From an uncultured Thermoplasmata archaeon (GTDB taxonomy: Archaea; Thermoplasmatota; Thermoplasmata; JAGHBH01), in assembly GCA_964601625.1 (NCBI GenBank), contig CAZROC010000007.1:46122-78121 (forward strand): a DNA stretch of 32,000 nt, written 5' to 3'. The position numbers and the translations under genes are program-made. Within the stretch, counting starts at the first letter, position 1. Every line of letters begins with the position of its first letter. The notes beneath the pieces were generated by a model. That model was given only the letters and a program-made list of their open reading frames with translations. It was not told where the DNA came from and ran no database searches. Shown piece after piece: positions 2,225 through 29,025 of this stretch.

Positions 2225-2458
2225 ACCTTCGCACAGTCATCCCAACATATGCACCAAAACTTTTTTATACAACTGACTCTAAAATATCTGTGGACATGGA
2301 TTTGGCTTAGTGGCTTTGGGAAACAGTTTGGTGGGCCGGGACGTTGATGGAAAACACCTTGAATGGGTGTTTTTCATCTCCTGAATATGTGTGATGCATA
2401 ATATCACGCTAATGTTTAGCACGTTAGTGGTCAAAAAAAGGTGTGGGAGGTGATAACA

Positions 2459-3619
2459 ATGGCAGGATATCCGCGCTTCATAAACAGGATAGAGGACGTT
2501 GAGAGACTGCGACCCGAGGAAAAGGAGACGCTGAAAAAGGTAACCGAAAAGTTCGCCTTCAGAACTAACGAGTACTATCTCTCGCTTATAAACTGGGACG
2601 ACCCCAACGATCCTATAAGGCGGCTGGTGATACCATCGCCCGAGGAACTCCACGAGTGGGGCGCCCTTGACCCGTCCAACGAGGCCCGGTACACCGTCAT
2701 GCGGGGTGTGGAGCATAAATACCGGAGCACGGTGTTGTTCCTCGTTAACAACGTGTGCGGTAGCATCTGCAGGTACTGTTTCAGAAAGCGTCTGTTCATG
2801 AAAAACGCCCACGACACACTACGCCCACAGGACCTGGACAGAGCGGTGGAATACGTGCGTAGCCACCCGGAGGTGAACAACGTTCTTCTCACAGGCGGGG
2901 ACCCGCTCATGTTCCCCACCCGCCGCCTTGAGGAGATTATCAGCAAACTCCGCCAGATAGACCACGTTGATACCATCCGCATAGGGACGAAAATCCCCGC
3001 CTTCAACCCCTACAGGATTACAGAGGACCCGTCGCTGCTTGAGATGATAGAAAAATACAGCACCCCCGAGAAAAGGATATACATCATATCCCACTTCAGC
3101 CACCCCCGGGAAATAACTCCCCAGGCGATAAAGGCGGTGGACATGCTCCTCAAAAGCGGGGCCATACTCGCCAACCAGAACCCCCTGATAAGGGGAGTAA
3201 ACGACGACCCACGGGTGCTCGCAGAGCTTTTCAACAAACTACAGGCGATCGGAGACCCACCCTATTACGTCTTCCAGTGCAGACCCGCCTCCGGGAACAG
3301 GGCATACTCTGTGCCTGTGGAAGAGGCCTACGACATAGTTGAAGAGGCGAAAAAACCAGTCTCTGGCCTGGCTAAAAGAGCGAGGTATATCCTGTCCCAC
3401 GCCACGGGCAAAGTGGAAGTCATAGCGAAAACAGACAGCCACATCCTGTTCAGATACCACCAGGCCGCCGACCCCGGGGACATAGGCAGGGTCATGATAT
3501 TCAGACGAAACCCCGAGGCATACTGGCTGGACGACTACCTGGTGCAGGGGGAAATTTCTGTGGAAGGCATTGGGATGGAAAAGGGCGGCCTTGACGAAGA
3601 AGAGCACGTGGAGACGTGA
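2459..3619 (+). CDS. KamA-family radical SAM / PLP aminomutase-like enzyme; the substrate is probably not lysine
   Basis: The radical SAM cluster motif is 'CGSICRYCFRK' (CxxxCxxC). Also present are 'VLLTGGDPLM', 'IRIGTK', 'ISHFSHPREIT', 'NQNPLIRGVND', 'PPYYVFQC' and a late 'ATGK' (candidate PLP lysine). ATG 2459 is preceded by GGGAGGTGA (2445..2453). The GTG at 2441 in the ORF track is less likely to be the start. Confidence 0.85.
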   Translation: MAGYPRFINRIEDVERLRPEEKETLKKVTEKFAFRTNEYYLSLINWDDPNDPIRRLVIPSPEELHEWGALDPSNEARYTVMRGVEHKYRSTVLFLVNNVCGSICRYCFRKRLFMKNAHDTLRPQDLDRAVEYVRSHPEVNNVLLTGGDPLMFPTRRLEEIISKLRQIDHVDTIRIGTKIPAFNPYRITEDPSLLEMIEKYSTPEKRIYIISHFSHPREITPQAIKAVDMLLKSGAILANQNPLIRGVNDDPRVLAELFNKLQAIGDPPYYVFQCRPASGNRAYSVPVEEAYDIVEEAKKPVSGLAKRARYILSHATGKVEVIAKTDSHILFRYHQAADPGDIGRVMIFRRNPEAYWLDDYLVQGEISVEGIGMEKGGLDEEEHVET

Positions 3620-3757
3620 AATTAACTCCGAAACTCAGCATCTGTACCGGAATATCAACATTTTTATAAAGAAGGCGCCATATACCCCTGTCAGGTCATA
3701 TCCAGCGGAAGAAACAATCCGCACATCATTAACCCACCCTATTATGGTAAAAAGGAG

Positions 3758-4504
3758 ATGGTGGTTGTCGTGAACCCTGCACCTGCGATTTACACAACGG
3801 ACAGAATAAAGACGTACATAGAGGGATTTGACGAAAAAATGGAGGGAGGCATACCAGAGGGCCACATCGTCCTCATAGTAGGCGAGTCCGGGACAATGAA
3901 ATCCTCCATAGCATTCAACATACTCTACTACAACGCCCTTGAAGAGGGGACCAGGGGGGTGTATATCACCCTTGAACAGGGCAGGGAAAAACTCCTCAAA
4001 CACATGGCCGGACTGGGGATGCGAATAGAAAACGTGGAAGACCTCCTTGCGGTGGTGGACCTGGCAATAATACGCAAAAACCTTGAAAAACTCGGCCAGC
4101 AGACCTGGATGCAGATATTCAAAATGTACGCCAGAAACCTCAAAGAAAACCTGGGATACGACCTCCTCGTCCTGGACAGCCTCCCCGTGCTTGAGACCCT
4201 GGCCAACATGAAAAACCCCCGCGAAGAGCTCTTCCTCTTCTTTGAGTGGCTCAGGGACCTTGACATAACGGCTTTCCTCATACAGGAGACCCCCCACGGC
4301 GAAGAGATATACGGGAGGTATGGCGAGGACTTCCTCAGCGATGGCATAATACACCTGAAAATGGAACAGGTGGACGACACCAACGTCCAGAGGAGAATAA
4401 GATGTGTCAAAATGCGTGAGACGGACCACAGCCCCAACTACTACACCCTCCTCTTTGAAAACGGGAGGTTCCAGGCCACCAGGGTGATAACGGACAACAG
4501 ATAA
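3758..4504 (+). CDS. Single-domain KaiC/RecA-superfamily ATPase, paralog 1, with an atypical P-loop
   Basis: The N-terminus 'IKTYIEGFDEKMEGGIPEGHIVLIVGESGTMKSS' is the KaiC-type lead-in plus P-loop. Other motifs are 'VYITLEQ', Walker B 'LLVLDSL' and C-terminal 'CVKMRETDHS...F...GRF'. An AAGGAG ribosome binding site lies just upstream of ATG 3758. It is paralogous to the next gene. Confidence 0.8.
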   Translation: MVVVVNPAPAIYTTDRIKTYIEGFDEKMEGGIPEGHIVLIVGESGTMKSSIAFNILYYNALEEGTRGVYITLEQGREKLLKHMAGLGMRIENVEDLLAVVDLAIIRKNLEKLGQQTWMQIFKMYARNLKENLGYDLLVLDSLPVLETLANMKNPREELFLFFEWLRDLDITAFLIQETPHGEEIYGRYGEDFLSDGIIHLKMEQVDDTNVQRRIRCVKMRETDHSPNYYTLLFENGRFQATRVITDNR

Positions 4505-4538
4505 AATCCAGATAAAGGTCATGGGGAGATGTGAGACC

Positions 4539-5231
4539 ATGGAAAGAATAAAAACATACGTGAAAGGACTTGACGAGATGCTCCAGGGTGGTGTCCCAAA
4601 AAACTACATAGTCCTTATGGTTGGACAGCCGGGCACTATGAAATCCTCCCTTGGCTACTACATATTGTATAAAAACGCAAAACACGAGGGGCGGAGAGGG
4701 GTGCACATCTCTCTTGAGCAGAGCAGGACAAGCCTCGCCATGTCAATGAAAGCCATGGGCATGGATATAACGCCTGAGATAGGGGACAAAATAAGCATCC
4801 TGGACCTGGCATTCATAAGAAAAAAGATGACGCAGCTAGGAACCACCACGTGGGTTGAGGTTTTCAAAATGTACGCCAGAAACCTCAAAGACACTATGGA
4901 CTACGAGATGATGGTCATAGACAGCCTCCCCGTGCTTGAAACCCTGGCCAGATTTGACAACCCCCGCGAAGAACTCTTCCACCTGTTTGAGTGGCTCAGA
5001 GACCTTGAGGTCACCACCTTCGTCATACACGAGATGCCCCAGGACACCAACCGCTTCGCCCAGTACGGAGAGGACTTCCTCAGCGACGGCATAATACACC
5101 TTGACCTAAAAAGAGAAAAAGAGAGCGTCAACCTCTTTCTGGGAATAGCGAAGATGAGGGCCACCGCCCACAAAAGAGGATACTTCCCCCTGATATACGA
5201 CAAAAGGGGCTTTGAGGTGGTTGTGAGGTAG
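4539..5231 (+). CDS. Single-domain KaiC/RecA-superfamily ATPase, paralog 2, with an atypical P-loop
   Basis: Motifs are 'MERIKTYVKGLDEMLQGGVPKNYIVLMVGQPGTMKSS', 'VHISLEQ', Walker B 'MMVIDSL' and 'IAKMRATAHK...GFEVV'. It is collinear with paralog 1 at a constant 745-nt offset. I prefer ATG 4539 over ATG 4521 because of the alignment with paralog 1. Confidence 0.8.
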   Translation: MERIKTYVKGLDEMLQGGVPKNYIVLMVGQPGTMKSSLGYYILYKNAKHEGRRGVHISLEQSRTSLAMSMKAMGMDITPEIGDKISILDLAFIRKKMTQLGTTTWVEVFKMYARNLKDTMDYEMMVIDSLPVLETLARFDNPREELFHLFEWLRDLEVTTFVIHEMPQDTNRFAQYGEDFLSDGIIHLDLKREKESVNLFLGIAKMRATAHKRGYFPLIYDKRGFEVVVR

Positions 5232-5316
5232 CGCCACTCCCGCCCCCACAGCATATTTAATATGTATGTAGTATATTCAACAGTTAAGAAACGCTAAATT
5301 TCAAACCGCTTTTGTT

Positions 5317-6324
5317 TTATATTTTCTCTTTGATTAAATGATTAATTACACATTCGGATATGTCGCTAGCATATTCTCCGGTTCTCCTGATACTCTCTGA
5401 AATATAACCAATTGAGACTGCCATTGCACCTTTCTGTTGCAATGCCAGGGTATTTATTTTTTCGCATAGAGATACAAGATTTGTTAGTGAATCAATGTTC
5501 CTATTGGCTAATTTTATATCTCTTTTAGTGAACGAATCTATACTTTTATCAAAGATCTCCAGTGCAAGATTGTTGGCAGATTCAATTGTATCAATAACTT
5601 CTTTGTCCACATCTTCATCTATGAAACTCAGGATATTTTTTGCTATTTTAACTGCATGATCTCCAATGCGCTCTATAATCCTGCTTATTAGAAAATAGTT
5701 TACAACTTTCTCTGTTGTAATGCCCATCTTTCTAGCAAGGTTTACATCTCTTGATACTATGTTGTGTTGACGTGCTATCAGCCAGTGTAGTCTATCTACG
5801 TCGTTGTCTCTGGATAAAATGTCCTCAATCAATGTTTTATCCTTATTTTTTAACATTCTAACAGCATCTTTGTGCATGTTTTTCACGATTAGATACATCC
5901 TCCGAAGAGAATTATCAAATGGCATTTCTACGGGGTTTAGCAAATCTTTTATTGTAATGCTATTATCTGTTTCCTCCACAACTTCTTGACCTATTGTTGC
6001 CTGTGTAAACTTTCTGCTCACTGTTCTTACAAATGGAGGTATTGCGCTTCTAGATTTAATCTTGATGGTTGTGTACCCGGCAATATACGCTCCGATCAAA
6101 CATCGAAATAAGTAAGTCGGTGTATCAATAGTGTCTGCGTTGATCTCTATCATTCTTTCTTCTTGTCTTTCGTCAACTTTTTTTGTAATCAACAAGGTAC
6201 CATCTGGCTGGATGATTAATCCCAGCGGGTCGTTTTTCTTTATGTTTAATTTTTTGATCCAGGTCTTGGGTAGTGTGATGATATAAGACGCACCTCCCGT
6301 AACCTGGACTTTTCTGATTTCCAT
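5317..6324 (-). CDS. AbrB/SpoVT-domain + PhoU-domain fusion protein (archaeal-type phosphate uptake regulator)
   Basis: The N-terminus 'MEIRKVQVTGGASYIITLPKTWIKKLNIKKNDPLGLIIQPDGTLLI' is a swapped-hairpin AbrB/SpoVT-like DNA-binding domain. The rest contains PhoU-like helical repeats, for example 'ISRIIERIGDHAVKIAKN' and 'SESIRRTGEYASDISE'. It is divergent from pstS. Confidence 0.8.
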   Translation of the reverse strand: MEIRKVQVTGGASYIITLPKTWIKKLNIKKNDPLGLIIQPDGTLLITKKVDERQEERMIEINADTIDTPTYLFRCLIGAYIAGYTTIKIKSRSAIPPFVRTVSRKFTQATIGQEVVEETDNSITIKDLLNPVEMPFDNSLRRMYLIVKNMHKDAVRMLKNKDKTLIEDILSRDNDVDRLHWLIARQHNIVSRDVNLARKMGITTEKVVNYFLISRIIERIGDHAVKIAKNILSFIDEDVDKEVIDTIESANNLALEIFDKSIDSFTKRDIKLANRNIDSLTNLVSLCEKINTLALQQKGAMAVSIGYISESIRRTGEYASDISECVINHLIKEKI

Positions 6325-6348
6325 GCTATCACCTACGTGAATGTATTG

Positions 6349-6423
6349 CTATAAGTTTTTAAACGTTTCTATACCAGACTATAGCGGTATATAGATATAT
6401 TGTAGTTATATAGTGAAATATAG
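6349..6423. promoter_or_regulatory. Array of about 10-bp-phased CTATA / T(A/G)TAG repeats in the divergent abrB-phoU / pstS intergenic region; candidate operator array
   Basis: CTATA occurs at 6349, 6369 and 6379. TATAG occurs at 6380, 6390, 6409 and 6419, and TGTAG at 6401. Spacings are 8 to 11 bp, or 20 bp where one position is skipped. Confidence 0.35.
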
Positions 6424-6438
6424 TTTATGCCGATAAAG

Positions 6439-6448
6439 TATATATTTA
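6439..6448 (+). promoter_or_regulatory. Candidate archaeal TATA box for pstS
   Basis: 'tatatattta' lies about 31-40 nt upstream of ATG 6479, and a GGAGG ribosome binding site at 6462..6466 sits between them. Confidence 0.35.
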
Positions 6449-6478
6449 CGCACGGTTTAACGGAGGCTGGTGATAAAA

Positions 6479-7327
6479 ATGGAAGCGAAAAAGAAGAAAA
6501 TGGTGTTTGGAGCGACAGTGGGCATTGTAGGAGTAATTGTTATTGCAGCAATGCTTGGGGGATGGTTTAAAACTGTCAAAACTGAAACCATAACCATAAG
6601 AGGTTCTACAACGGTTCTACCCATAGCGCAGAGGGCGGCAGAGGCGTATATGGAGGAGCATCCCGATGTAGACATCCGTGTAAGTGGTGGGGGTTCTAGT
6701 GTAGGTATCCAATCGGTGGGAGAAGGAATCGTTGACATTGGAATGGCGTCAAGAGACCTAAAAGATGAGGAAAAAATCAGGTATCCGAATTTAAAACCTA
6801 TAGTTATAGCGAAGGACGGCATTGCAATTATTGTTCATCCAGATAATCCTGTAACGAGCCTCACGCTGGAACAGATAAGGGGGATATATAACGGGACCTA
6901 CACGAATTGGAAGGAAGTCGGCGGTGCTGATGAGGACATCGTCGTAATCAACAGGGACAGCGCTAGTGGAACAAGAGAATTTTTTTGGGAGCATGTACTG
7001 GAGAAGGATGACTTTGTAGCAACGGCCCTTGAAAAAAATTCAAACGGCGCTGTAAAACAGACAGTAAGCCAGACACCTAACGCAATAGGATATGTTGGTC
7101 TTGGATATTTAGACAACTCAGTGAAAGCGGTAAAGATAAAAAAGGATGGAAAGGGAATAGAACCAACAGTAGAAAACGTATTGAATGATGAGTATCCAAT
7201 CTCACGATCTTTGTATATGATCACGAACGGCGAGCCAAAAGGATTAGCGAAGGACTTTATTGATTTCGTGCTGAGTGAAGAAGGGCAGAGAATTGTGGAG
7301 AAAGAAGGATTTGTTCCCATCGGGTAG
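6479..7327 (+). CDS. pstS: Phosphate ABC transporter substrate-binding protein PstS
   Basis: An N-terminal membrane anchor 'VFGATVGIVGVIVIAAMLGGWF' is followed by 'GSTTVLPIAQRAAEAYMEEHPDVDIRVSGGGSSVGI', 'INRDSASGTREFF' and 'IGYVGLGYL', all PstS-family signatures. GGAGG lies upstream of ATG 6479. The GTG at 6470 in the ORF track is too close to the ribosome binding site. Confidence 0.9.
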   Translation: MEAKKKKMVFGATVGIVGVIVIAAMLGGWFKTVKTETITIRGSTTVLPIAQRAAEAYMEEHPDVDIRVSGGGSSVGIQSVGEGIVDIGMASRDLKDEEKIRYPNLKPIVIAKDGIAIIVHPDNPVTSLTLEQIRGIYNGTYTNWKEVGGADEDIVVINRDSASGTREFFWEHVLEKDDFVATALEKNSNGAVKQTVSQTPNAIGYVGLGYLDNSVKAVKIKKDGKGIEPTVENVLNDEYPISRSLYMITNGEPKGLAKDFIDFVLSEEGQRIVEKEGFVPIG

Positions 7328-7406
7328 AGTGTTAGAAAGTTGCAACGAGCGGAAAAGAAGGATAGGAAAAGAAATTGATGAAGAAATTGAGACTCAAAAG
7401 TGTTAG

Positions 7407-9383
7407 GTGAGCACATTGACCAGAAATATACACTTTCTCATAAAAACTTTTTATTTAATTAATAAAAAGATAATTAATAAAAAAACTTTCAGGGAAATTA
7501 TCATAAAGGGAACATTATTCGTAAGTGCGATCTTTGCTATAGTGGTGATTTTTTTCATCGTATTTTTCTTATTTAAAGAGGGACACCCAATATTTGAAAA
7601 TATTGGATTATGGAGTTTTTTATCTGGTAAAGAATGGAACCCATCTGGAGTTCCTCCACGTTATGGGGCTTTTCCGCTCATTTTGGGATCTTTGCTGGTG
7701 ACGTCTGGTGCCATGACAATTTCAGTTCCCTTGGGAGTCGGGACCGCCATATTTATTTCGGAGATCGCACCGCCAAAGATAAAGACCATCATTAAATCTG
7801 GAGTTGAAATACTTTCAGGCATCCCATCAGTCGTTTATGGATTCTTCGGGTTAACCGTGTTAACTGATTGGTTGAGGGTGACATTTAATCGGCCATCTGG
7901 TGAATGCTGGTTAGCAGGTTCTATTCTCCTTGGAATAATGGCATTACCAACTATTATCAGCGTATCCGAGGATGCACTAAGCTCTGTTCCCATGGAATAT
8001 AAGGAGGCTTCTCTATCTTTGGGTGCAACTAAGTGGCAGACCATAAGCAGGGTGAGTGTGCCCTCAGCTATTTCTGGTATTGCTGCAGCCATAATCCTAG
8101 GTACTGGTAGAGCGATTGGAGAGACCATGGCAGTAATGATGGTAACTGGAAACGCTGCCATTATTCCCAAACCAATTACAAATGTCTTTTCTCCTATCAG
8201 AACAATTACTGGTACACTGGGCATTGAGATGGGAGAAGTAGCATATGGGAGTACCCATTATCATGCATTATTTGGTTTAGCCCTGGTACTGTTTGTTATA
8301 ATCTTCATTGTGAATACGACTGCAAACGTTATTATAGGAAAGATAAAAGAAAAGCACATGCCAACATCAAAGAAGAAAAAAAGAAAGAGGTTATCGCAAA
8401 AAATAGTGCAGGGAGTCAGGTACAGCATATATGCCCTACTTGGTTTAACCTTGATATGGCTATTGGTTGTGTGGTTTAGTATAGAAATATCCATCTTAAT
8501 AATTTTGATTATACTTTGTTACTATATTATTACCAAAAAAATCTCTGCTAAAAGTTCTCAGCGAGTAGCCTTTGGATTAGTCACATTATCCACAATAATT
8601 GTACTGTTTACCCTAGGGACAATCCTGTACTACATTATAGCAAACGGGATAGGAGCAATGAGCTGGGAATTTTTATCACAACCCCCCAGAGATTCCGGCA
8701 GAGCCGGCGGAATATACCCTGCGATAATAGGCACTTTTTATTTAGTAAGCGGCGCAATTCTTATTGCTTTGCCTATCGGTGTAGGTGCTGCTGTCTATCT
8801 GACTGAGTACACAAGAGAAGGATTGCCGACAAAGATAATTCGAACCGGTGTAGAAAATTTAAACGGCACGCCTTCTATTGTATTTGGCTTGTTTGGATTT
8901 GCATTCTTGGTACTCTACCTGGAGATGGGTATATCATTGCTGGCAGGACAGATAACGTTAGCACTCATGATACTCCCTACGATAATAATAACCACAGAGG
9001 AATCTTTAAAAAGTGTTCCACAGCCGATGAGAGAAGCAAGTTTAGCGTTAGGTGCCACAAAATGGCAAACCGTGAGAAAAGTGGTTTTACCTCCCGCAAT
9101 GCCCGGGATAATTACCGGAACGATACTCAGTATTGGCAGAGCTGCCGGCGAAACAGCACCGATTATGTTTACTGCTGTTGTCTTCAGTCAAAGATTTTTG
9201 CCAGCCTCACCATTAGAACCAGTAATGGCACTACCATACCATCTATTTGTACTCACAACAAGTGTCCCCGGTGCAGAGCAAAATGCGTATGGCACCGCAT
9301 TAGTTCTTTTGATATTAGTTACATGTCTATATATAATCGCAATAATGATTCGTTATCACCATAAAAAGATGGTAAAGTGGTGA
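7407..9383 (+). CDS. pstCA: Fused phosphate ABC transporter permease PstC-PstA in a single 658-aa polypeptide
   Basis: The N-terminal half has the PstC-type EAA loop 'EDALSSVPMEYKEASLSLGATKWQTISRVSVP'. The C-terminal half has the PstA-type loop 'EESLKSVPQPMREASLALGATKWQTVRKVVLP' and 'GGIYPAIIGT'. There is no stop codon between the halves. They are joined by a basic segment 'KEKHMPTSKKKKRKRLSQK' plus two extra hydrophobic helices. The start is uncertain: GTG 7407 or TTG 7416. Confidence 0.85.
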   Translation: MSTLTRNIHFLIKTFYLINKKIINKKTFREIIIKGTLFVSAIFAIVVIFFIVFFLFKEGHPIFENIGLWSFLSGKEWNPSGVPPRYGAFPLILGSLLVTSGAMTISVPLGVGTAIFISEIAPPKIKTIIKSGVEILSGIPSVVYGFFGLTVLTDWLRVTFNRPSGECWLAGSILLGIMALPTIISVSEDALSSVPMEYKEASLSLGATKWQTISRVSVPSAISGIAAAIILGTGRAIGETMAVMMVTGNAAIIPKPITNVFSPIRTITGTLGIEMGEVAYGSTHYHALFGLALVLFVIIFIVNTTANVIIGKIKEKHMPTSKKKKRKRLSQKIVQGVRYSIYALLGLTLIWLLVVWFSIEISILIILIILCYYIITKKISAKSSQRVAFGLVTLSTIIVLFTLGTILYYIIANGIGAMSWEFLSQPPRDSGRAGGIYPAIIGTFYLVSGAILIALPIGVGAAVYLTEYTREGLPTKIIRTGVENLNGTPSIVFGLFGFAFLVLYLEMGISLLAGQITLALMILPTIIITTEESLKSVPQPMREASLALGATKWQTVRKVVLPPAMPGIITGTILSIGRAAGETAPIMFTAVVFSQRFLPASPLEPVMALPYHLFVLTTSVPGAEQNAYGTALVLLILVTCLYIIAIMIRYHHKKMVKW

Positions 9384-9387
9384 TTGA

Positions 9388-10152
9388 ATGCCTGAAAACA
9401 ACTACGTCATTGAAACTGAGGAACTAAATCTGTGGTATGGAGAAAACCATGTGCTTAGAGATATATGCATGAAAGTTATGAAAAATAGAGTGACTGCGTT
9501 GATAGGTCCATCTGGTTGTGGAAAATCTACACTTATTAGATGTTTCAACCGTATGAACGACATTATTGGTAATTGCAGAATAAAGGGAAAAGTGTTTTTC
9601 AATGGAAAGGATATTTACAACCCGAATACAGATGTAGTTACTATAAGAAAAAAAATAGGCATGGTATTTCAAAAACCCAATCCATTCCCTAAATCAATAT
9701 ATGAAAACGTGGCTTATGGACCAAGAGTCCATGGCATAAATGATAGGGAAACACTGGACAGAATAGTTGAGAAAAGTCTAAAAGCTGCCGCTCTTTGGGA
9801 TGAGGTTAAAGATAGACTCGATATTTCTGCAATGAGCCTATCTGGTGGGCAGCAGCAAAGGTTGTGTATTGCAAGGGCGTTAGCTATAGAACCGGAGGTC
9901 CTATTGATGGATGAGCCATGCTCATCTCTGGATCCCATAGCAACTACAAAAATTGAGGACCTGATAAATGATCTGAAAAAGAAATATACTGTTGTTATCG
10001 TAACTCATAGCATGCAACAGGCAGCGAGAGTAAGCGATTACACAGGATTCCTTTACCTTGGACAAATGATTGAGTTTGGACCTACAAAACAGATATTTGA
10101 GAACCCACAAGAGGAACTCACTGAGAAATATATCACGGGAAGGTTTGGATGA
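9388..10152 (+). CDS. pstB: Phosphate ABC transporter ATP-binding protein PstB
   Basis: Walker A is 'GPSGCGKST', the ABC signature is 'LSGGQQQRL', Walker B is 'LLMDEP' and the H-loop is 'VTHSMQQA'. The PstB-typical '[18 protein letters not shown]' is present. Confidence 0.95.
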
Positions 10153-10164
10153 TAGGGTGGTAAA

Positions 10165-10815
10165 ATGGTTGAAAAATTTCACGCAGAACTAAACGCGCTA
10201 AAAAAGGAAGTACTGGAAATGGGAGATCTTGCTAGGGACATGCTCCAAAAGTCGGTAGAATCTCTGAAGAAGCGAGATATTGAGATGGCTGGCCAGGTTA
10301 TATCAAAAAAGAGCGCAATTATAGATATGGATGATGATATAGAACAGCGTGCCCTCACACTCCTCACTCTTTATCAACCCATGGCTAAAGACATGAGAAC
10401 AATAGCATGCATTTTAAAAATGATTACATATCTAACAAGAATTGGGCGATATGGGAAAGATATAGCGAACTTGGCAAGGGAGTTATCTACACAGCCTCAT
10501 ATAGCTAAATTGGTAAGTATACCTTATATGTGCGATATTGTATGTGAGATGATTGAAGATGCGCTGAAGGCATTTGAAACAGAGGATTTGTCCTTAGTCC
10601 AGGATTTTTCAGAGAGGGATGACACTCTGGACACACTAAGATACTCCATATTTAGGGAATGTTTAACTTATATGATGGAGGACCCTAAAAATATCACACG
10701 CTGCGCGCATTATATGATGATTGCTCGTTATCTGGAAAGATGCGGAGATCACGCATGTAAGATTGCTGAAAAAGTTCATTATATGGTGACAGGTGAACGG
10801 ATTGAGATAAAATAA
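10165..10815 (+). CDS. phoU: Phosphate signalling / transport accessory protein PhoU
   Basis: It contains two PhoU repeats, 'ITYLTRIGRYGKDIAN' and 'ARYLERCGDHACKIAEK'. The 216-aa gene lies immediately downstream of pstB. Confidence 0.9.
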   Translation: MVEKFHAELNALKKEVLEMGDLARDMLQKSVESLKKRDIEMAGQVISKKSAIIDMDDDIEQRALTLLTLYQPMAKDMRTIACILKMITYLTRIGRYGKDIANLARELSTQPHIAKLVSIPYMCDIVCEMIEDALKAFETEDLSLVQDFSERDDTLDTLRYSIFRECLTYMMEDPKNITRCAHYMMIARYLERCGDHACKIAEKVHYMVTGERIEIK

Positions 10816-10933
10816 TGGCAGGTGACTCTGGCTCTCAGTGATGCTTTATCGCCCAAATGCCTTTGCCACTTTTATAACGATGTAATCAGTTAGATGTGCG
10901 ACGAGCGAATGATCTTCAGATATTCCCACATGG

Positions 10934-12601
10934 TCACAGCCGCGGCCCCACAATCTGCCACACTATCAACAACAGCACGGCCACGCTCGCAGCCATTGTG
11001 ACCTTTCCGGAAAACGCCTCCACCTTTTTCGCATCTGCGAGTTTTTTTCTCCACAGGCAGAATCGTGTGTAAACAGCGGCTATGAAATCTTTGAATATAT
11101 ACCCTCCGTCAAGGGGGACAGCGGGCAGAGAGTTCGTGAGACCGACCATTATGTTCAGCCAGAAGAGGAAATAAAAGGCGTTCACCAGACCCCAGAAAAA
11201 CCACTCCGGCAGAACGGACAGGGGGCCTGTTACAGTGTAAAAATCGGTAAACGGGTGGACCATCGGGGCCATGCGCAGCCCGGGGCCTATGTTGTTGAAA
11301 GGCAGAGATATGTAGAGTATGGTGGAGGCGAAAAAACCCTTAACGCCATCGGCGTCTCTGTAGGGGTTGACCAGGAACCCCGCCAGCCGGCCGGGGTGGG
11401 TCGCCAGCGATATGACCCCCAGAAACCCCTTGCCTATGCCAACAGTAACATTAACCACCGTCTGCTCTCCGTCCCGGAACAGGGTCAGAGTGGTGTTTTC
11501 CCCCGGCGTGAGGCCATCCAGAGCGGAGTGGTATGAGCCAATGTCCGGTGTGGGAGTGCCGTTCAGGGACACTATGACATCTCCCACGGCCACCCCCGCT
11601 TTTTCCCCGGGCCCGTTTTTATACACTTCCACGACCAACACGCCACCCACGTCCCCTGCCCCCCCTGTGTCACCGCTATCGTCCACTTCAAGGCCCAGCG
11701 AGGGCTTTTCCGACCTGTACCATGGCTGGTTTTTAAAATAGGCGTCAGGGGCATAGCCCATCCTGGCTGTGGTGTTCCATGCCCCCCTGTCCCGGTGGAA
11801 AAGGGTGATGTTCACCACATCGCCGGTGTGTGTCCTGTTTATGGCATCGTGGAGGTCGTCCCAGCCGTGTATCGGCGTGCCGTTGAAAGAGGTTATGAAA
11901 GACCCGTTTACAATTCCAGCCTCTTCCGCGGGCGAGTTGGGGATTACAAAAAGCACGGCGTCACCATCGGAAGCGGCACGGACAGAGCCCATGAGCACCC
12001 ACGAAAAAATCAGAGCAAAAACCAGACCCCACATTATGTTGGCGGAGGGGCCGGCGGAGTAAACCCGCATCCTCACACGCCTTGGAGCCTTCTTCAGCTC
12101 GTCCTCGTCCGGCTCAACAAAGGCCCCTATGGGAACGATCAGGAACAGTATTCCCATGGACTTAACAGAAAGACGCCCGAGCCGGGTTAGGATGCCGTGG
12201 GAAAACTCGTGGACCACTATGGCAACAGCCAGGCCCAGGATGCCCTCCCAGAGGGGTATGACAGGGTTTACCCCGGGAATCCCCACGTACATTGAAATCG
12301 GAGGCGCCTCTTTGCGGGGCATCGTGTAGACAAAGCTCGCAGTCCACAGCAGGAAAAAAAACATCAAAGCCATGGAGACCATGACCAGCGCCACGGAAAA
12401 ATCGCCGTAGAACCCCCAGAACCTCCGCTTTGACGCCAGCCGGTCAAGTAAACGCCGCCCCCTCCTGGTGCGGATCATAAGCGCCGGTCCCCAGAGCGAG
12501 ATACCCCTCTCCTCCATAGCATCTTTTTTGAAGCTGAACAGCAAAAAAACGGCGAGGAAATACACTGCGAGAACGACCAGGAAAATGAAGAGGCCGGACA
12601 C
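10934..12601 (-). CDS. Site-2 protease (peptidase M50) with inserted PDZ domains
   Basis: The zinc motif 'VVHEFSHGI' (HExxH) lies in a TM helix, and the C-terminal 'LTNSLPAVPLDGGYIF' is the NxxPxxxLDG motif. Two PDZ-like segments are present: 'NSPAEEAGIVNGSFITSFNGTPI' and 'NGPGEKAGVAVGDVIVSLNGTP'. Confidence 0.85.
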   Translation of the reverse strand: MSGLFIFLVVLAVYFLAVFLLFSFKKDAMEERGISLWGPALMIRTRRGRRLLDRLASKRRFWGFYGDFSVALVMVSMALMFFFLLWTASFVYTMPRKEAPPISMYVGIPGVNPVIPLWEGILGLAVAIVVHEFSHGILTRLGRLSVKSMGILFLIVPIGAFVEPDEDELKKAPRRVRMRVYSAGPSANIMWGLVFALIFSWVLMGSVRAASDGDAVLFVIPNSPAEEAGIVNGSFITSFNGTPIHGWDDLHDAINRTHTGDVVNITLFHRDRGAWNTTARMGYAPDAYFKNQPWYRSEKPSLGLEVDDSGDTGGAGDVGGVLVVEVYKNGPGEKAGVAVGDVIVSLNGTPTPDIGSYHSALDGLTPGENTTLTLFRDGEQTVVNVTVGIGKGFLGVISLATHPGRLAGFLVNPYRDADGVKGFFASTILYISLPFNNIGPGLRMAPMVHPFTDFYTVTGPLSVLPEWFFWGLVNAFYFLFWLNIMVGLTNSLPAVPLDGGYIFKDFIAAVYTRFCLWRKKLADAKKVEAFSGKVTMAASVAVLLLIVWQIVGPRL

Positions 12602-12604
12602 CCT

Positions 12605-13006
12605 TCACACCCCGCCGCCGTTTTCCCCGCCACCACCCTCTCCCCAGAAATCAAGGTTTTCGTAAACGTCAGCCCCACCGTTTTTTTCTTCTTCCAGCTT
12701 TTTTTCCTCCTCAGCGGCCTCTTTTATCTTATCCTTGTTCAAAACCCAGTAGTGGAGACGCCACTTCTTACCGTGGGCGACATAGACCTCGTCCTCAAAC
12801 GTGGAAACCAGGCCCACCTCCTCCAGCAGATAGAACACGTCCCTCTCCTTTGAAGACAGCTTGTTGTCAGGTATTGAGTCGTCATAGCCAAAAAACTCCA
12901 TCGCCTTCCGGGCGACCTCTCTGGCCCTCTCTGCCCCCAACCTCTCACCCAGCAGGCGAACAGCGGCACGCTCAAGATCCTCAACAGACACGGTCGTCAG
13001 AGGCAT
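12605..13006 (-). CDS. Conserved-looking hypothetical soluble protein with an acidic, Gly-rich C-terminal tail; operonic with the M50 protease
   Basis: The 133-aa ORF has GC-rich host-like codon usage. Its stop at 12605 lies 3 nt upstream of the M50 start at 12601. I recognise no family. The tail reads 'EEEKKLEEEKNGGADVYENLDFWGEGGGGENGGGV'. Confidence 0.5.
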   Translation of the reverse strand: MPLTTVSVEDLERAAVRLLGERLGAERAREVARKAMEFFGYDDSIPDNKLSSKERDVFYLLEEVGLVSTFEDEVYVAHGKKWRLHYWVLNKDKIKEAAEEEKKLEEEKNGGADVYENLDFWGEGGGGENGGGV

Positions 13007-13054
13007 TACCTCCGCCCACCGAAAAAGAGGGGGGAGATAAAAGAGTTCCGATAA

Positions 13055-13536
13055 CTATTCTGTATCCATGGGATGCTGGTGTCCGCCCGGTTCAATCTCC
13101 AGTGATATTATCAACTCCGCTGTTGTCCAGATCCTTATTCTATCTTTTATTTTGTCCTGTATCTGGAAGTAATGGTTGTCGTTTGTCCAGACCCCATCGT
13201 TGTTTGTGCAGAGGGCGAGGGCGATGAAAACGGTGTCATCTGGATCTATGGGGTCCATGATTTTTCTTGCCTCATCAAAACAGGGAAGGATTTTACTTAT
13301 TGGAACAATTTCAATGCGAGAGAATATTTCGCCAAGAACAAAATTGAGTTCGTAATCCTCTAGACCGCTTTTTTGAAGAATCAATGAACCATGTTTTCTG
13401 ATTTCATATAAGATATAATCAGGTGCTATGAATTCAAGATGTGGGTTTAGAAGTATTTTCCTTGAGGCGGGTTTTTTATAAGGGCAGAGAAGATGGGATT
13501 TGAGTCCACAACGAGGGTTTTTGGGATTTTTGTCAT
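13055..13536 (-). pseudogene. PIN-domain (VapC-like) toxin gene disrupted by a frameshift in a homopolymer run
   Basis: ATG 13536 (minus strand) gives 'MTKIPKTLVVDSNPIFSALIKNP...' and then stops; this holds the first acidic PIN residue in 'VVDSN'. Another frame continues '...KILLNPHLEFIAPDYILYEIRKHGSLILQKSG...' into ORF 13055..13384, which carries 'DPDDTVFIALAL' and 'VWTNDNH'. The frames meet at the A6 run (T6 on the plus strand, 13472..13477). Confidence 0.6.
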
Positions 13537-13596
13537 TTAAATCACTACTTCTTTCCCGTGTTTACAAGTATTTATAGTTTTTTAAACGCATAAATA

Positions 13597-13854
13597 TTAT
13601 CCCGCCGTCCCCTCCGCCCCATCGCCATCTTTGCCTCTCTCATAATGCTTTCTTAGCTCCTTTTTGATGATCTTATCTATCTCTTCAACGTCTTTTTCTG
13701 TGAGTTCGCTTTTTGAGAGTATATGGTCTAAGAGTTCAAGTTTGGTGGCGTACTCCCACATGGCTCTTCTGGCGATCTCACTCCATCTGATCTCTCTGTG
13801 GGATTTTATAATGCGGTAAAGGTCCTCGGGAATGGAAAGGGTCATGGTTGGCAT
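13597..13854 (-). CDS. Small antitoxin-like protein (VapB-type, RHH-like N-terminus) upstream of the PIN gene
   Basis: The 85-aa protein begins 'MTLSIPEDLYRIIKSHREIRWSEIARRAMWEY', which resembles archaeal antitoxins that pair with PIN toxins. It lies 60 bp upstream of the PIN start on the same strand. Confidence 0.5.
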   Translation of the reverse strand: MPTMTLSIPEDLYRIIKSHREIRWSEIARRAMWEYATKLELLDHILSKSELTEKDVEEIDKIIKKELRKHYERGKDGDGAEGTAG

Positions 13855-13913
13855 ATCTCCACCACAACAATCTTATGTTAATGCACATATTTATGTGTTT
13901 CTATGTATCTCTT

Positions 13914-14987
13914 TCACCGCCTGAAAACAGTCCCGTGATATGTGTACATAGCCGTTCTCACAGCGGTTGTAGTCCAGAGAGACAGGAGCAGAAAGTATAT
14001 GGAAAGGCCGAAAAGGTCTACGACATCGCTTTTCAGCACGCCAGCCACAAGGTGTGTGGCACCCACATATGCTCCCAGGGGGAATGTGAACGCCCACCAG
14101 GCCAGAGAATATGGGAGGGAGAGATTCTTTATGTAGTGAATGGTGAGGGCTATGGCCATAACAAGCCACCAGATGCCAAAGGACCAGAAGAAAACAGCAA
14201 ACAACGTGATGCTCCCGTACACGGGCCCGGATACAGTGCCTCCAGAAGCGCCCAGAGTGTTTAGAAGAGCGAGGAGGGACATGGTCCCCGCCCCTATCGG
14301 TCCGAGGTTTATCCACACAGTGGGGGCGAGAACGTTTGGGAGGGGATGGTGGAGGATGAAGCGGTACATAACCACCGCAAGAAGGGCCAGGTATATGAAA
14401 AAGCCAGCGCCCCACCCGAAGATGTTGAGGAGGAGGACGCTTTCTTTTAGAACCCCCGCCGGCAGTGCTGTGTAGACCTTTGCACCTGCTATGGGAATCA
14501 CTATGAGGCCAACCGGGGGTATGAACCAGCCGGGGTTTATGTGGTCAATTTTGACATGCTCTCCCGAGAAGACGATGTATGGAATATAGAGGGAGAAAAA
14601 CACCGTGGCCAGCGCCCCTATGAACCACAGAAGTTCCGCCAGCAGTTTCCCATCAGAGCCCCAGAACATGAAAATGTTGCCCGAAAGAACCAGCATCGCC
14701 ACGCTTATGGTGGGATAGAAGTTGGATATGACGGGGTGGACGAGGTCTTTTTTTGCGTCCTCCCTGTAAAAGATCCATCTCAACGTCCAGGGAACAAGCA
14801 GGGTGGTGAACAGGACTATGTTGAAATAAAATAGCCCCAGGGCCAGATAGTGGAGCGCCGGTATGCGGTTTGAATAGAACTCGCTTGTGACAGCGGTTAT
14901 CCCGGTTCCCATCACAGATGCAAACCACGAGGGGGCGAAGTTTTTCACGATTTCACATTTGCATTCTACATCGCGGAGCATTTCCAT
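13914..14987 (-). CDS. TDT-family (TehA/Mae1/SLAC1-like) anion transporter
   Basis: It has about 10 predicted TM helices and the N-terminal family signature 'FAPSWFASVMGTGI'. The ORF extends to ATG 15029, but ATG 14987 or 14981 follow a GGTGG ribosome-binding-like element. The start is uncertain. Confidence 0.8.
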   Translation of the reverse strand: MEMLRDVECKCEIVKNFAPSWFASVMGTGITAVTSEFYSNRIPALHYLALGLFYFNIVLFTTLLVPWTLRWIFYREDAKKDLVHPVISNFYPTISVAMLVLSGNIFMFWGSDGKLLAELLWFIGALATVFFSLYIPYIVFSGEHVKIDHINPGWFIPPVGLIVIPIAGAKVYTALPAGVLKESVLLLNIFGWGAGFFIYLALLAVVMYRFILHHPLPNVLAPTVWINLGPIGAGTMSLLALLNTLGASGGTVSGPVYGSITLFAVFFWSFGIWWLVMAIALTIHYIKNLSLPYSLAWWAFTFPLGAYVGATHLVAGVLKSDVVDLFGLSIYFLLLSLWTTTAVRTAMYTYHGTVFRR

Positions 14988-15057
14988 CGCCACCGTTCTA
15001 TGCTGTCTTCGCAGGCCCCATAACCTCATGGTATTTCAAATTATCTTGTACTACCAA

Positions 15058-27904: not shown

Positions 27905-28210
27905 ATGGCGAACAGGTCCTTAGATGAGATAGTGTCTGTCCTTAAAAAGCATGAGAAAGAGCTGAAAGAGAGATACGGAATTAAAGAGATCGGTATTTTT
28001 GGGTCGTATGTGAGAGGGGAAGAGCGTGAAAGTAGCGATGTTGATATTCTTGTGGAATTTTACCCGGATGCGCATATAAGTCTGCTGGATTTTGTTGAAA
28101 TAGAAAACTATCTCACAGAATTGCTCGGAATAAAAGTGGACCTCGTAGAAAAATCCGCGCTGAAGCCGAGGATAGGAAGAAGAATACTGGGAGAGGTTGT
28201 AAGTATATGA
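27905..28210 (+). CDS. mntA: Minimal nucleotidyltransferase (MNT; antitoxin partner of HEPN toxins)
   Basis: The 101-aa protein carries 'IGIFGSYVRGEERESSDVDILVEF', the GS(x)n D.D polymerase-beta-type NTase motif. Confidence 0.85.
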   Translation: MANRSLDEIVSVLKKHEKELKERYGIKEIGIFGSYVRGEERESSDVDILVEFYPDAHISLLDFVEIENYLTELLGIKVDLVEKSALKPRIGRRILGEVVSI

Positions 28211-28566
28211 AAAGAGAGATAGTAGACTACATAGAAGACATAATAGGCGCCATGGACAAAGCATCTTCATTTGTAGAGAGCATGAACTACGACGAATTTG
28301 TTAGAGACGTGAAAACTGTTTATGCAGTGATACGAGCAATAGAGATCATAGGCGAAGCGGTCAAAAACATACCGGAAGATGTCAGAAAAAATTACCCGGA
28401 AATACCCTGGAAAAACATAGCAGGAATGAGGGACAAAGTGATCCATGCATATTTCGGAGTAAACCTGGAAAGAATCTGGCAGGTAATTCAAAAGGACATA
28501 CCGGTTCTCAAACCAGAGTTTGAAAAAGTGCTTATGGATATGCAGACACAATCGGATATGGGATAA
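28207..28566 (+). CDS. hepT: HEPN-domain protein, DUF86 / HepT-type toxin
   Basis: 'MRDKVIHAYFGVNLERIW' contains the Rx4H HEPN motif. The 119-aa gene has a 4-nt ATGA start/stop overlap with the MNT gene. Confidence 0.85.
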   Translation: MKREIVDYIEDIIGAMDKASSFVESMNYDEFVRDVKTVYAVIRAIEIIGEAVKNIPEDVRKNYPEIPWKNIAGMRDKVIHAYFGVNLERIWQVIQKDIPVLKPEFEKVLMDMQTQSDMG

Positions 28567-28590
28567 AATGGGTTGAGGCGGTGTATTAAG

Positions 28591-28944: not shown

Positions 28945-29025
28945 CGTGCTAGAATCCCCTAACGTTTTCCCCACAAAAACGTTTAAATCCTGTGTTTTCT
29001 TTGTGGGGGTAGGGGAGGAGATAGT

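What the first reader, a model, noticed from the sequence alone, without database searches (positions are those of the whole stretch)
3758..5231. Tandem single-domain KaiC/RecA-like ATPases share a non-canonical P-loop (GxxGTMKS) and near-identical nucleotide blocks
Both paralogs replace the second invariant glycine of the Walker A motif GxxxxGK[ST] with methionine: GESGTMKS in gene 1 and GQPGTMKS in gene 2.

Both also read 'LEQ' where KaiC-type ATPases usually have the catalytic 'EE' pair. Walker B (LLVLDS / MMVIDS) and the C-terminal KMR..H motif are retained. Because both copies carry the same deviations, this looks like a family trait rather than decay.

The two genes align without indels at a constant 745-nt offset. 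A 29-nt run is identical (4118..4146 = 4863..4891). The segment 4325..4356 differs from 5070..5101 by a single base, and the block between them is also highly similar. The N-terminal thirds are much more diverged. That mosaic suggests gene conversion or strong constraint on an interaction surface.

A heteromeric ring that mimics double-domain KaiC is a plausible inference. Single-domain KaiC-like ATPases have been proposed as signalling hubs in archaea, but I know of no described function for a GTMKS-type pair next to a KamA-like enzyme.
Basis: partly seen in the sequence, partly recalled or inferred. Interest (0 to 1): 0.7.

Follow-up and report, generated by a model that had tools for sequence, protein, structure and literature searches.

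The report
KaiC-like ATPase pair, methionine P-loop
Two adjacent archaeal genes belong to a large, undescribed Thermoplasmatota family of KaiC-like ring ATPases in which a normally invariant glycine of the ATP-binding loop is replaced by methionine, and the two copies have recently exchanged DNA in their conserved core.

Summary
Both genes (kA 3758-4504; kB 4539-5231, probably not 4521) are single-domain KaiC/RecA-fold proteins. Both read GxxGT-M-KS and L-E-Q where KaiC has GxxGT-G-K[ST] and E-E.

This is a family trait, not decay. All 240 closest homologues carry M/L/F/Y/W at that position. So do 147 of the best 150 cluster representatives at 50% identity (one has R; two fragments lack the motif). 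Lys, Ser/Thr, the first Glu, the Walker-B Asp and the KMR arginine finger stay about 94-100% conserved.

kA and kB are not recent duplicates. They belong to two old orthogroups (A, B; a third, C, exists) found across Thermoplasmatota MAGs. A and B are usually unlinked. The tandem layout is confined to a small clade, and the KamA-like neighbour is unique to this organism.

The near-identical blocks are real (194 nt at 79%, 39 nt at 92%, one 29-nt exact run). Synonymous divergence falls to about 0.2-0.26 only there and only within this genome, which supports gene conversion. The "constant 745-nt offset, no indels" claim is wrong: there are two one-codon indels.

A heteromeric ring is possible but untested, and synteny does not support an obligate pair. 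My reading is a new variant of a known kind, of moderate interest.

The parts
3758..4504 (+). kA: single-domain KaiC-like protein of orthogroup A. Walker A GESGTMKS begins at nt 3881; LEQ at residues 72-74; Walker B LLVLDS; KMRETDH.
   Evidence: PF06745 E 2e-43. AF2 model has mean pLDDT 87; best PDB fold matches are PH0186 (2zts) and KaiC CI. Orthogroup A signature QRRIRCVKMR..HSPNYYTL.
4539..5231 (+). kB: single-domain KaiC-like protein of orthogroup B. Walker A GQPGTMKS begins at nt 4623; LEQ; MMVIDS; KMRATAH. The ORF opens at 4521, but ATG 4539 is the likely start.
   Evidence: PF06745 E 3e-42. Orthologues are 229-233 aa and 58-80% identical. B signature VNLFLG.AKMR.TAHKRGYFPL. GGGAG lies upstream of 4539.
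4103..4296 (+). Copy 1 (in kA) of the main homogenised block, containing the 29-nt exact run 4118-4146.
   Evidence: 79% identical to 4848-5041. pS 0.21-0.26 here against 0.65-0.75 in the flanks. 32 of 36 same codons against 15.4 expected.
4848..5041 (+). Copy 2 (in kB) of the main homogenised block, containing 4863-4891.
4318..4356 (+). Copy 1 of the second near-identical block (YGEDFLSDGIIHL).
   Evidence: 92% identical to 5063-5101; 31 of 32 identical for 4325-4356.
5063..5101 (+). Copy 2 of the second near-identical block.
3663..3670 (+). TATA-like TTTATAAA upstream of kA. With the 16-34 nt kA-kB gap, this suggests one transcript. Inference only.
   Evidence: Sequence read directly; no archaeal promoter model was run.
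2441..3619 (+). Upstream KamA-family radical SAM gene. It is a neighbour only, not a conserved part of the system.
   Evidence: Passes the generic TIGR00238 cut-off (231 vs 199) but no equivalog cut-off. Absent from the other loci.
10934..12601 (-). M50/PDZ site-2-type protease, the usual neighbour of orthogroup B. Here it is separated from kB by a low-GC pst/PhoU block.
   Evidence: Pfam M50 + PDZ. 42% identical to the B-neighbour in L068. Found opposite-strand downstream of B in 8 of 22 loci.

Best explanation
kA and kB belong to two anciently diverged orthogroups (A and B) of a large Thermoplasmatota family of single-domain KaiC/RecA-fold P-loop proteins. The family is defined by a deviant Walker A, G-x-x-G-[TS]-[M/L/F/Y]-K-[ST], and usually by L-E-Q in place of the KaiC E-E pair.

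**Shown.** The trait is family-wide. Every other nucleotide-site residue is under strong purifying selection: Walker-A Lys and Ser/Thr, the first catalytic Glu, Walker-B Asp, E177, and K218/R220 of the KMR arginine finger.

**Inferred.** The proteins still bind nucleotide at subunit interfaces of a KaiC-like hexameric ring. The bulky hydrophobic residue and the Glu-to-Gln change tune the site towards very slow or altered hydrolysis. The proteins would then act as nucleotide-dependent switches or scaffolds in signalling, like other archaeal KaiC-like proteins, rather than as fast motors.

**Shown.** In a small clade that includes this organism, A and B have become adjacent. Adjacency has allowed gene conversion. 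There is a recent tract or patchwork in this genome at about nt 4100-4360 / 4845-5105. There is also older A-to-B homogenisation of residues 14-200 across the tandem clade. The C-terminal ~45 residues, which carry the strand before the arginine finger and define A versus B identity, stay fully distinct.

**Inferred.** Selection keeps the two C-terminal faces different, so the paralogues are functionally non-redundant. Mixed A/B rings are possible but are not required by the data.
For: - **Fold and family.** PF06745 at E about 1e-43. The profile hits KaiC, PH0186, PH0284 and SSO2452 in the PDB. The AF2 model has pLDDT 87 and TM about 0.76-0.87 to PH0186 and KaiC CI.
- **Family-wide motif.** 240 of 240 close homologues carry it. 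Among the 150 best representatives of 50%-identity clusters (E <= 1e-48; 324 at E <= 1e-30), 147 have M/L/Y/F, one has R, and two fragments lack the motif.
- **Conserved active-site residues.** Among 140 diverse representatives (selected by a motif regex that fixes the Walker-A Gly, Lys and Ser/Thr): D140 100%, E73 94%, E177 94%, K218 98%, R220 98%. Position 47 is M 81%, L 14%, Y/F 5%.
- **Two orthogroups.** Each window protein is 58-80% identical to its orthologues but only 51% to its neighbour.
- **Usually unlinked.** Shown. Tandem only in the window/L001, L006, L035, L044, L082, L083 and L084.
- **Conversion.** pS is 0.21-0.26 in alignment columns 118-175, against 0.65-0.75 in the flanks and 0.7-0.8 for all cross-genome A-vs-B pairs in the same columns. 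Same-codon use is 43 of 53 against 22.9 expected. The run-of-polymorphic-sites test gives p about 0.001. Different Leu codons (CTC, CTT, CTG) are matched position by position. Tandem-clade B proteins are shifted 3-9 SD towards A in residues 14-200 but not in 201-240.
Against: - There is no biochemical evidence. Replacing the Gly before the P-loop Lys is expected, from general P-loop knowledge, to weaken nucleotide binding, so a non-binding pseudo-ATPase is not excluded.
- Oligomeric state was not modelled.
- The permutation test ignores rate heterogeneity. A long run in the same stretch also appears in one cross-genome pair, L083_A / L082_B.
- The 'older homogenisation' could partly reflect a deep, distinct B lineage rather than conversion.
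- Only five tandem pairs had DNA available for analysis.
Confidence: 0.6

Rival explanations
1. Pseudo-ATPases. The Gly-to-Met and Glu-to-Gln changes abolish nucleotide binding or hydrolysis, and the proteins act purely as structural or adaptor subunits, for example regulating other KaiC-like or TPR proteins.
For: The second Walker-A Gly is normally invariant and the second KaiC catalytic Glu is lost. Family members are fused to TPR/Zn-ribbon protein-interaction modules.
Against: Walker-A Lys and Ser/Thr, E73, Walker-B D140, E177 and K218/R220 are 94-100% conserved across representatives that are less than 50% identical to each other. This is hard to explain without a ligand in the site. About 20 of the 150 representatives keep E-E together with Met. 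From memory: MoxR/RavA-type AAA+ proteins tolerate a non-Gly (Ala) at the equivalent position and still bind nucleotide.
Confidence: 0.2
2. Obligate A/B hetero-hexamer that mimics double-domain KaiC. The two genes encode the two halves of one machine.
For: The genes are adjacent and probably co-transcribed here, with a 16-34 nt gap. A and B co-occur in many MAGs. The shared core is homogenised while the C-terminal faces stay distinct.
Against: A and B are at separate loci with different conserved neighbours in most genomes. A sits with an S8 subtilase surface protein, B with an M50 protease. At least three paralogue groups plus TPR fusions exist. Solved single-domain KaiC-like entries carry multiple chains of a single sequence (PH0284 6 chains, PH0186 3); that these assemble as homo-hexamers is from memory.
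Confidence: 0.15
3. The near-identical nucleotide blocks are only the by-product of purifying selection on a conserved protein core plus shared codon bias. There was no recombination.
For: The blocks coincide with the most conserved KaiC core motifs (DSLPVLE, PREELF, FEWLRDL, GEDFLSDGIIH), which are shared by A and B in all genomes. A long matching run in the same stretch is also seen for one cross-genome pair.
Against: Synonymous divergence in the same columns is saturated (pS 0.7-0.8) for every cross-genome A-vs-B comparison but is 0.21-0.26 within this genome. The observed same-codon count far exceeds the expectation from local codon usage (43 vs 22.9; 32 vs 15.4 in the sub-block). Leu codon choice is matched site by site.
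Confidence: 0.05

Closest known systems
Archaeal single-domain KaiC-like proteins with solved structures (PH0186, PDB 2zts; PH0284, 2dr3; SSO2452, 2w0m)
   Same: They have the same ~230-aa single RecA/KaiC domain. PH0186 is the best fold match (TM 0.76-0.87, 30% identity). Walker B, the first catalytic Glu and the K-x-R..H arginine-finger motif are shared. Function is likewise poorly defined.
   Different: From memory, those proteins have the canonical GxxGxGK[ST]. The window family has Met/Leu/Phe/Tyr there and Gln for the second Glu. The window proteins fall far below the curated cut-offs of the NCBIfam archaeal KaiC families (TIGR03880 109 vs 249; TIGR03881 88 vs 248; TIGR03877 79 vs 307).
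Cyanobacterial circadian KaiC (CI domain)
   Same: It matches in sequence profile and fold (E 1e-32 to 1e-42). The core segment after Walker B (PREELF..FEWLRDL..T.F.I.E) corresponds to the KaiC segment aligned to it (rRELFrLvarLKrmGvTTimtaE in 8zn5). KaiC is a very slow ATPase, which serves as the model for a 'switch'.
   Different: KaiC has two domains and an E-E pair, and works with KaiA/KaiB. Here there is a single domain, E-Q and a Met P-loop. Scores are far below the KaiC equivalog cut-offs (113 vs 408; 52 vs 546). No KaiB was seen among the annotated neighbours.
ArlH/FlaH (archaellum KaiC-like protein)
   Same: It is a single-domain KaiC-like regulator with a deviant nucleotide site that binds ATP and modulates a partner ATPase (from memory). 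This shows that non-canonical KaiC-like sites can still be functional.
   Different: The ArlH deviation is in Walker B, not Walker A (from memory). The window proteins score 48 and 34 bits against a cut-off of 215. No archaellum genes are nearby.
MoxR/RavA-type AAA+ Walker A (GxxGxAK[ST])
   Same: This is a precedent, recalled from memory and not tested here, for a non-glycine residue immediately before the P-loop lysine in an active, nucleotide-binding ATPase.
   Different: It belongs to a different P-loop class (AAA+, not RecA/KaiC) and has a small Ala rather than a bulky Met/Leu/Phe/Tyr.
KaiC-like ATPases as archaeal signal-transduction hubs (Makarova, Galperin & Koonin, mBio 2017)
   Same: It is the general framework: multiple KaiC-like paralogues per archaeal genome, variable fusions and neighbourhoods, and a proposed regulatory role.
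   Different: The paper could not be read here. I do not recall it describing a GxxGTMKS clade. Searches of the held literature for the motif or for KaiC in Thermoplasmatota found nothing relevant.

Membership tests
KaiC/RecA-like ATPase domain (Pfam PF06745) | Profile match above the curated gathering score | tested here: met
   148.6 and 145 bits against a cut-off of 26.6.
KaiC/RecA-like ATPase domain (Pfam PF06745) | RecA/KaiC fold | tested here: met
   AF2 pLDDT 87.3, pTM 0.86. Foldseek top hits are PH0186 and KaiC CI, E 1e-18 to 1e-20.
KaiC/RecA-like ATPase domain (Pfam PF06745) | Canonical Walker A GxxxxGK[ST] | tested here: not met
   GESGTMKS / GQPGTMKS: Met replaces the second Gly; Lys and Ser are kept.
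KaiC/RecA-like ATPase domain (Pfam PF06745) | Walker B (hhhhD) and the arginine finger in the K-x-R..H motif | tested here: met
   LLVLDS / MMVIDS and KMRETDH / KMRATAH. D140 is 100% and R220 98% conserved in the family.
KaiC/RecA-like ATPase domain (Pfam PF06745) | Catalytic Glu pair (E-E) after strand 2 | tested here: not met
   It reads E-Q. The first Glu is kept (94% in the family). The second is Gln in about 80% and Glu in about 17% of representatives.
KaiC/RecA-like ATPase domain (Pfam PF06745) | ATP binding / hydrolysis and hexameric ring | not testable with these tools
   No biochemistry or multimer prediction was available.
Circadian clock KaiC proper (NF006799 / TIGR02655) | Two tandem KaiC domains in one chain; score above the equivalog cut-off | tested here: not met
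   Single domain of 230-248 aa. 113-114 bits vs 408; 52-60 vs 546.
ArlH/FlaH (NF052589, NF004723) | Score above the curated cut-off; archaellum operon context | tested here: not met
   48 and 34 bits vs 215; 56 and 42 vs 194. No archaellum genes among the neighbours.
NCBIfam archaeal KaiC-domain families (TIGR03877, TIGR03880, TIGR03881) | Score above the curated cut-off | tested here: not met
   79-109 bits against cut-offs of 248-307.
RadA/RadB recombinases | Score above the curated cut-off | tested here: not met
   17-29 bits against cut-offs of 172-403.
Known anti-phage defence systems (PADLOC) | Significant match to a defence-system protein model | tested here: not met
   Only marginal hits: mad8 at 18.7 bits for kA, none for kB.
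Proposed 'GTMKS' KaiC-like family of Thermoplasmatota (defined here) | G-x-x-G-[TSA]-[MLFY]-K-[ST] P-loop; usually L-E-Q; KMR..H; single ~230-aa domain or C-terminal domain of TPR fusions | tested here: met
   Both window proteins meet it, as do 240 of 240 close homologues and 147 of the 150 best diverse representatives.

The most novel reading that the evidence does not exclude
The Met/Leu/Phe/Tyr P-loop defines a mechanistically distinct class of KaiC-like proteins. In this class the hydrophobic side chain re-shapes the nucleotide site, giving for example extremely slow turnover, altered nucleotide preference, or locking of a bound nucleotide. The A, B and C paralogues would assemble into mixed rings whose composition is set by their distinct arginine-finger faces. 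That would be a split, combinatorial analogue of KaiC CI/CII acting as a Thermoplasmatota-specific regulatory hub, linked to TPR proteins, small Ras-like GTPases and membrane or surface proteases.
Probability: 0.15. Interest if true: 0.75.

Novelty: new variant of a known kind. Interest (0 to 1): 0.45.

Why it matters
The glycine before the P-loop lysine is one of the most conserved residues in biology. Here a whole family spans at least about 150 clusters at 50% identity and hundreds of Thermoplasmatota genomes. It has replaced that glycine with a bulky hydrophobic residue while keeping every other catalytic residue.

That makes it a natural experiment on how far the Walker A motif can be re-engineered. 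It is also a candidate lineage-specific regulatory module in a phylum with almost no genetics. Motif-based annotation (GxxxxGK[ST]) would call these proteins 'inactive', which is probably wrong.

The tandem pair adds a clean small example of segmental gene conversion. The shared core is homogenised while the specificity-determining C-terminus is protected. This points to the part of the protein that distinguishes the paralogues functionally.

Tried and rejected
- **Recent tandem duplication.** Rejected: each gene has orthologues that are 58-80% identical, against 51% to its neighbour.
- **Conserved KamA-KaiC module.** Rejected: KamA-like hits occur only in L001, which is the same organism. L082 and L083 have other neighbours.
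- **Defence system.** No meaningful PADLOC match.
- **Structured RNA explaining the nucleotide identity.** No Rfam family in the window. The only inverted repeat is a weak 14-nt pair.
- **DUF7125 (PF23442) membership** suggested by precomputed annotations. The scores are sub-threshold, 17 bits vs 29.
- **Makarova et al. 2017.** Tried twice to read it; it is not held.
- **Literature searches** for the motif and for KaiC in Thermoplasmata or Thermoplasmatota returned nothing relevant.
- **Naming the source organism** from cluster records: no names are attached.
- **First neighbour analysis** with greedy ORF calling missed about a quarter of the KaiC-like genes. It was redone from tblastn hits.
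Full report
**1. What is at the coordinates**

The window carries two adjacent + strand ORFs, 3758-4504 (248 aa, 'kA') and 4521-5231 (236 aa, 'kB'). Both match the Pfam KaiC domain PF06745 over their whole length, with E 2e-43 and 3e-42. They are 51% identical as proteins.

An AlphaFold2 model of kA, built on a 33-sequence alignment, is confident (mean pLDDT 87, pTM 0.86). Its best structural matches in the PDB are the single-domain archaeal KaiC-like protein PH0186 (2zts) and the CI domain of KaiC.

kB orthologues are 229-233 aa long, and a GGGAG lies upstream of ATG 4539. The true start of kB is therefore probably 4539. A TTTATAAA box lies at 3663-3670, and the kA-kB gap is only 16-34 nt. 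This suggests a single transcript, but that is inference from the sequence.

**2. The motif observation**

In a profile-to-PDB alignment, the Met column aligns with the Gly of KaiC 'GTGK'. The Gln aligns with the second Glu of 'fEEs'.

**3. A family trait, not decay**

- Two searches of the 5.8-billion-protein collection gave 120 best hits for each gene. All 240 have M (or L/F/Y/W) in place of the second Walker-A Gly. All that could be scored read E-Q.
- A profile search of 1.84 billion cluster representatives at 50% identity found 324 proteins at E <= 1e-30. Of the best 150 (E <= 1e-48), 147 have M, L, Y or F at that position, one has R, and two are fragments that lack the region. About 110 read E-Q and about 20 keep E-E.
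- Across 140 of these diverse representatives, the other nucleotide-site residues are almost invariant. These 140 were picked with a regex that already requires the Walker-A Gly, Lys and Ser/Thr; 148 of the 150 matched it. Walker-B D140 is 100% conserved, E73 94%, E177 94%, K218 98% and R220 98%. Position 47 is always a large hydrophobic residue: M 81%, L 14%, Y/F 5%.
- All members that carry an organism name are Thermoplasmata or Thermoplasmatota MAGs, or unclassified euryarchaeal MAGs.
- Some members are 320-711 aa long, with N-terminal zinc-ribbon and TPR modules.
- No curated sub-family covers these proteins. They fall far below the cut-offs of the KaiC, ArlH/FlaH, RadA/B and archaeal KaiC-domain NCBIfam models. 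They do not match defence-system models.
- I found no literature on this P-loop variant. The key comparative paper (Makarova et al. 2017) is not held.

**4. Two old orthogroups, usually unlinked**

kA is 58-79% identical to its best homologues and kB is 58-80% identical to its own, against 51% to each other. The alignment separates two groups with diagnostic C-termini:

| Group | Diagnostic C-terminal signature |
|---|---|
| A | ..VDD.N[IV]QRRIRCVKMRGT.HSPNYYTL.. |
| B | ..VNL[FY]L[SG]V.KMRKTAHKRGYFPL.. |

Clustering of 95 sequences (93 from the fetched loci plus kA and kB) adds a third group, C, and several singletons.

A scan of GTDB species representatives found at least 498 loci. Among the 80 kept, A and B are at different loci in nearly every MAG that has both. 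Tandem copies occur only in L006, L035 (three copies) and L044, plus the window's own organism (L001). Three further contigs from close relatives also carry the tandem pair: L082, L083 and L084.

The KamA-family radical-SAM gene upstream (2441-3619) passes only the generic family cut-off. It is absent from all other loci.

Typical neighbours differ by group:

| Group | Typical neighbour | Frequency |
|---|---|---|
| A | ~1700-aa S8-subtilase surface protein, downstream | 25 of 43 loci |
| B | M50/PDZ protease, opposite strand | 8 of 22 loci |
| C | Ras/Roc-like small GTPase, downstream | 9 of 11 loci |

The window keeps the B-M50 relationship (M50 at 10934-12601, 42% identical to the L068 neighbour). 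Here, however, a low-GC pst/PhoU block lies in between.

**5. The nucleotide blocks and gene conversion**

The exact 29-nt run and the 31/32 block are real. The repeat finder reports 4103-4296 / 4848-5041 at 79%, 4318-4356 / 5063-5101 at 92% and 4056-4080 / 4801-4825 at 84%.

The 'constant 745 offset without indels' claim is wrong. Two single-codon indels make the offset 742 in the N-terminal and C-terminal parts.

Identity by region:

| Region | Protein identity | Nucleotide identity |
|---|---|---|
| N-terminal | 50% | 61% |
| Central | 64% | 75% |
| C-terminal | 25% | 47% |

The central region is the canonical KaiC core after Walker B. It is conserved in both groups in all genomes, so the amino-acid similarity is ordinary constraint. 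The synonymous sites are not explained by constraint.

- The Nei-Gojobori proportion of synonymous differences (pS) between kA and kB is 0.21-0.26 in alignment columns about 118-175. It is 0.65-0.75 in the flanks.
- Every cross-genome A-versus-B comparison in the same columns gives 0.7-0.8, with a minimum of 0.53.
- At identical amino acids, 43 of 53 central codons are the same, against 22.9 expected from local codon usage. In the sub-block it is 32 of 36 against 15.4. None of 200,000 simulations reached the observed count in either region.
- For comparison, the N-terminal part gives 28 of 46 (18.7 expected) and the C-terminal part 3 of 9 (3.9 expected).
- Different Leu codons (CTC, CTT, CTG) are matched site by site.
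- A GENECONV-style run test on polymorphic sites gives p about 0.001. It ignores rate heterogeneity, and the same stretch gives a long run in one cross-genome pair.

The identical patches are interrupted by clusters of non-synonymous differences: ENLGYDLLVL vs DTMDYEMMVI, NMK vs RFD, and DITAFLIQETPHGEEIYGRY vs EVTTFVIHEMPQDTNRFAQY. This fits either several short conversion tracts or one tract followed by selection at specificity sites.

At the protein level, the B copies of the tandem clade (P0121-P0136) are shifted 3-9 SD towards the A profile over residues 14-200. The shift is strongest in residues 113-136. In residues 201-240 they are as B-like as distant B proteins. The A copies are much less shifted. 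This mosaic supports older, mainly A-to-B, concerted evolution in the tandem clade, with the C-terminus protected. A deep, distinct B lineage is an alternative I cannot fully exclude.

**6. How it most likely works**

*Shown:* a KaiC fold; a family-wide deviant P-loop; a near-invariant remainder of the active site including the trans-acting K/R; multiple non-redundant paralogues per genome; and fusion to or adjacency with interaction modules (TPR) and other regulators.

*Inferred:* the site still binds nucleotide between subunits of a ring, as in PH0186, PH0284 and KaiC. The hydrophobic residue and the E-to-Q change slow or alter hydrolysis. The proteins would then work as nucleotide-state switches or scaffolds. 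MoxR/RavA-type AAA+ proteins (GxxGxAK[ST], from memory) show that a non-Gly at this position can be compatible with binding.

A pseudo-ATPase reading has a probability of about 0.2. An obligate A/B hetero-hexamer has about 0.15. Because conversion homogenises residues 14-200 while the arginine-finger-bearing C-terminus stays distinct, the A/B difference probably lies on the trans face of the interface. This allows mixed rings but does not demonstrate them.

**7. Verdict**

The KamA link and the obligate pair are not supported.

The object is a new variant of a known kind: a KaiC-like sub-family with a methionine P-loop, widespread in Thermoplasmatota and apparently undescribed. Interest is moderate. 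It is a clear and testable deviation in a near-universal motif, but there is no functional evidence and the conversion phenomenon itself is ordinary.

Noticed in passing
window 5240-10900: A low-GC block (34-44% against 47-58% in the flanks) carries an AbrB-PhoU regulator (5317-6324, -), PstS, a fused PstC/PstA ORF of 658 aa (7407-9383), PstB and PhoU. It sits between kB and the M50/PDZ protease, which is the direct neighbour of orthogroup B in other genomes. It looks like an inserted, possibly horizontally acquired phosphate-uptake island.
   Followed up: partly
L025 5524-8702: A different Thermoplasmata MAG (SKW197) has PstS and an AbrB-PhoU regulator directly upstream of an A-type GTMKS gene. 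This is a second juxtaposition of phosphate-regulation genes with this family. It may be coincidence: 2 of about 85 loci.
   Followed up: no
L056 8001-9258 and 8 other C-group loci: The third paralogue group (C) of the GTMKS family is followed on the same strand by a ~180-aa Ras/Roc/Arf-like small GTPase in 9 of 11 loci.
   Followed up: partly
L031 1767-7646 and 24 other A-group loci: Orthogroup A is followed on the same strand by a ~1700-aa protein in 25 of 43 loci. That protein has an S8 subtilase domain, fn3-like repeats, a C-terminal membrane anchor and a zinc-ribbon-like tail. A ~219-aa protein with no Pfam match lies divergently upstream in 20 of 43 loci.
   Followed up: partly
proteins P0253, P0264, P0293, P0310, P0312, P0346, P0390: Family members of 490-711 aa carry N-terminal zinc-ribbon and multiple TPR repeats fused to the Met-P-loop KaiC domain; of these seven, the four scored TPR fusions that keep E-E are P0310, P0312, P0346 and P0390. 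In L082 an 849-aa AAA_16-TPR protein sits just upstream of the tandem pair.
   Followed up: partly
window 2441-3619: The KamA-family radical SAM protein scores about equally against the lysine, glutamate and arginine 2,3-aminomutase models. It is below every equivalog cut-off and passes only the generic TIGR00238 family model. Its substrate is undetermined.
   Followed up: no
window 3635-4540 (-) and other antisense ORFs: A 301-aa antisense ORF spans almost all of kA, and similar long antisense ORFs overlie other genes of the higher-GC parts. They were not analysed; I presume they are compositional artefacts rather than genes.
   Followed up: no
L082 9468-10650; L083 1904-3081: In two relatives the tandem pair is followed by a DUF2116 treble-clef mini-protein. 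Then come a CTP_transf_like nucleotidyltransferase and an NTPase_I-T domain, as separate genes in L082 and fused in L083. This small conserved downstream block is absent from the window.
   Followed up: no
window 13001-14000 and 28001-29000: Two further low-GC pockets (about 41-42% and 40.5%) occur in an otherwise 50-58% GC stretch. The first lies just upstream of the SLAC1-type anion-channel gene (13914-15029, -).
   Followed up: no
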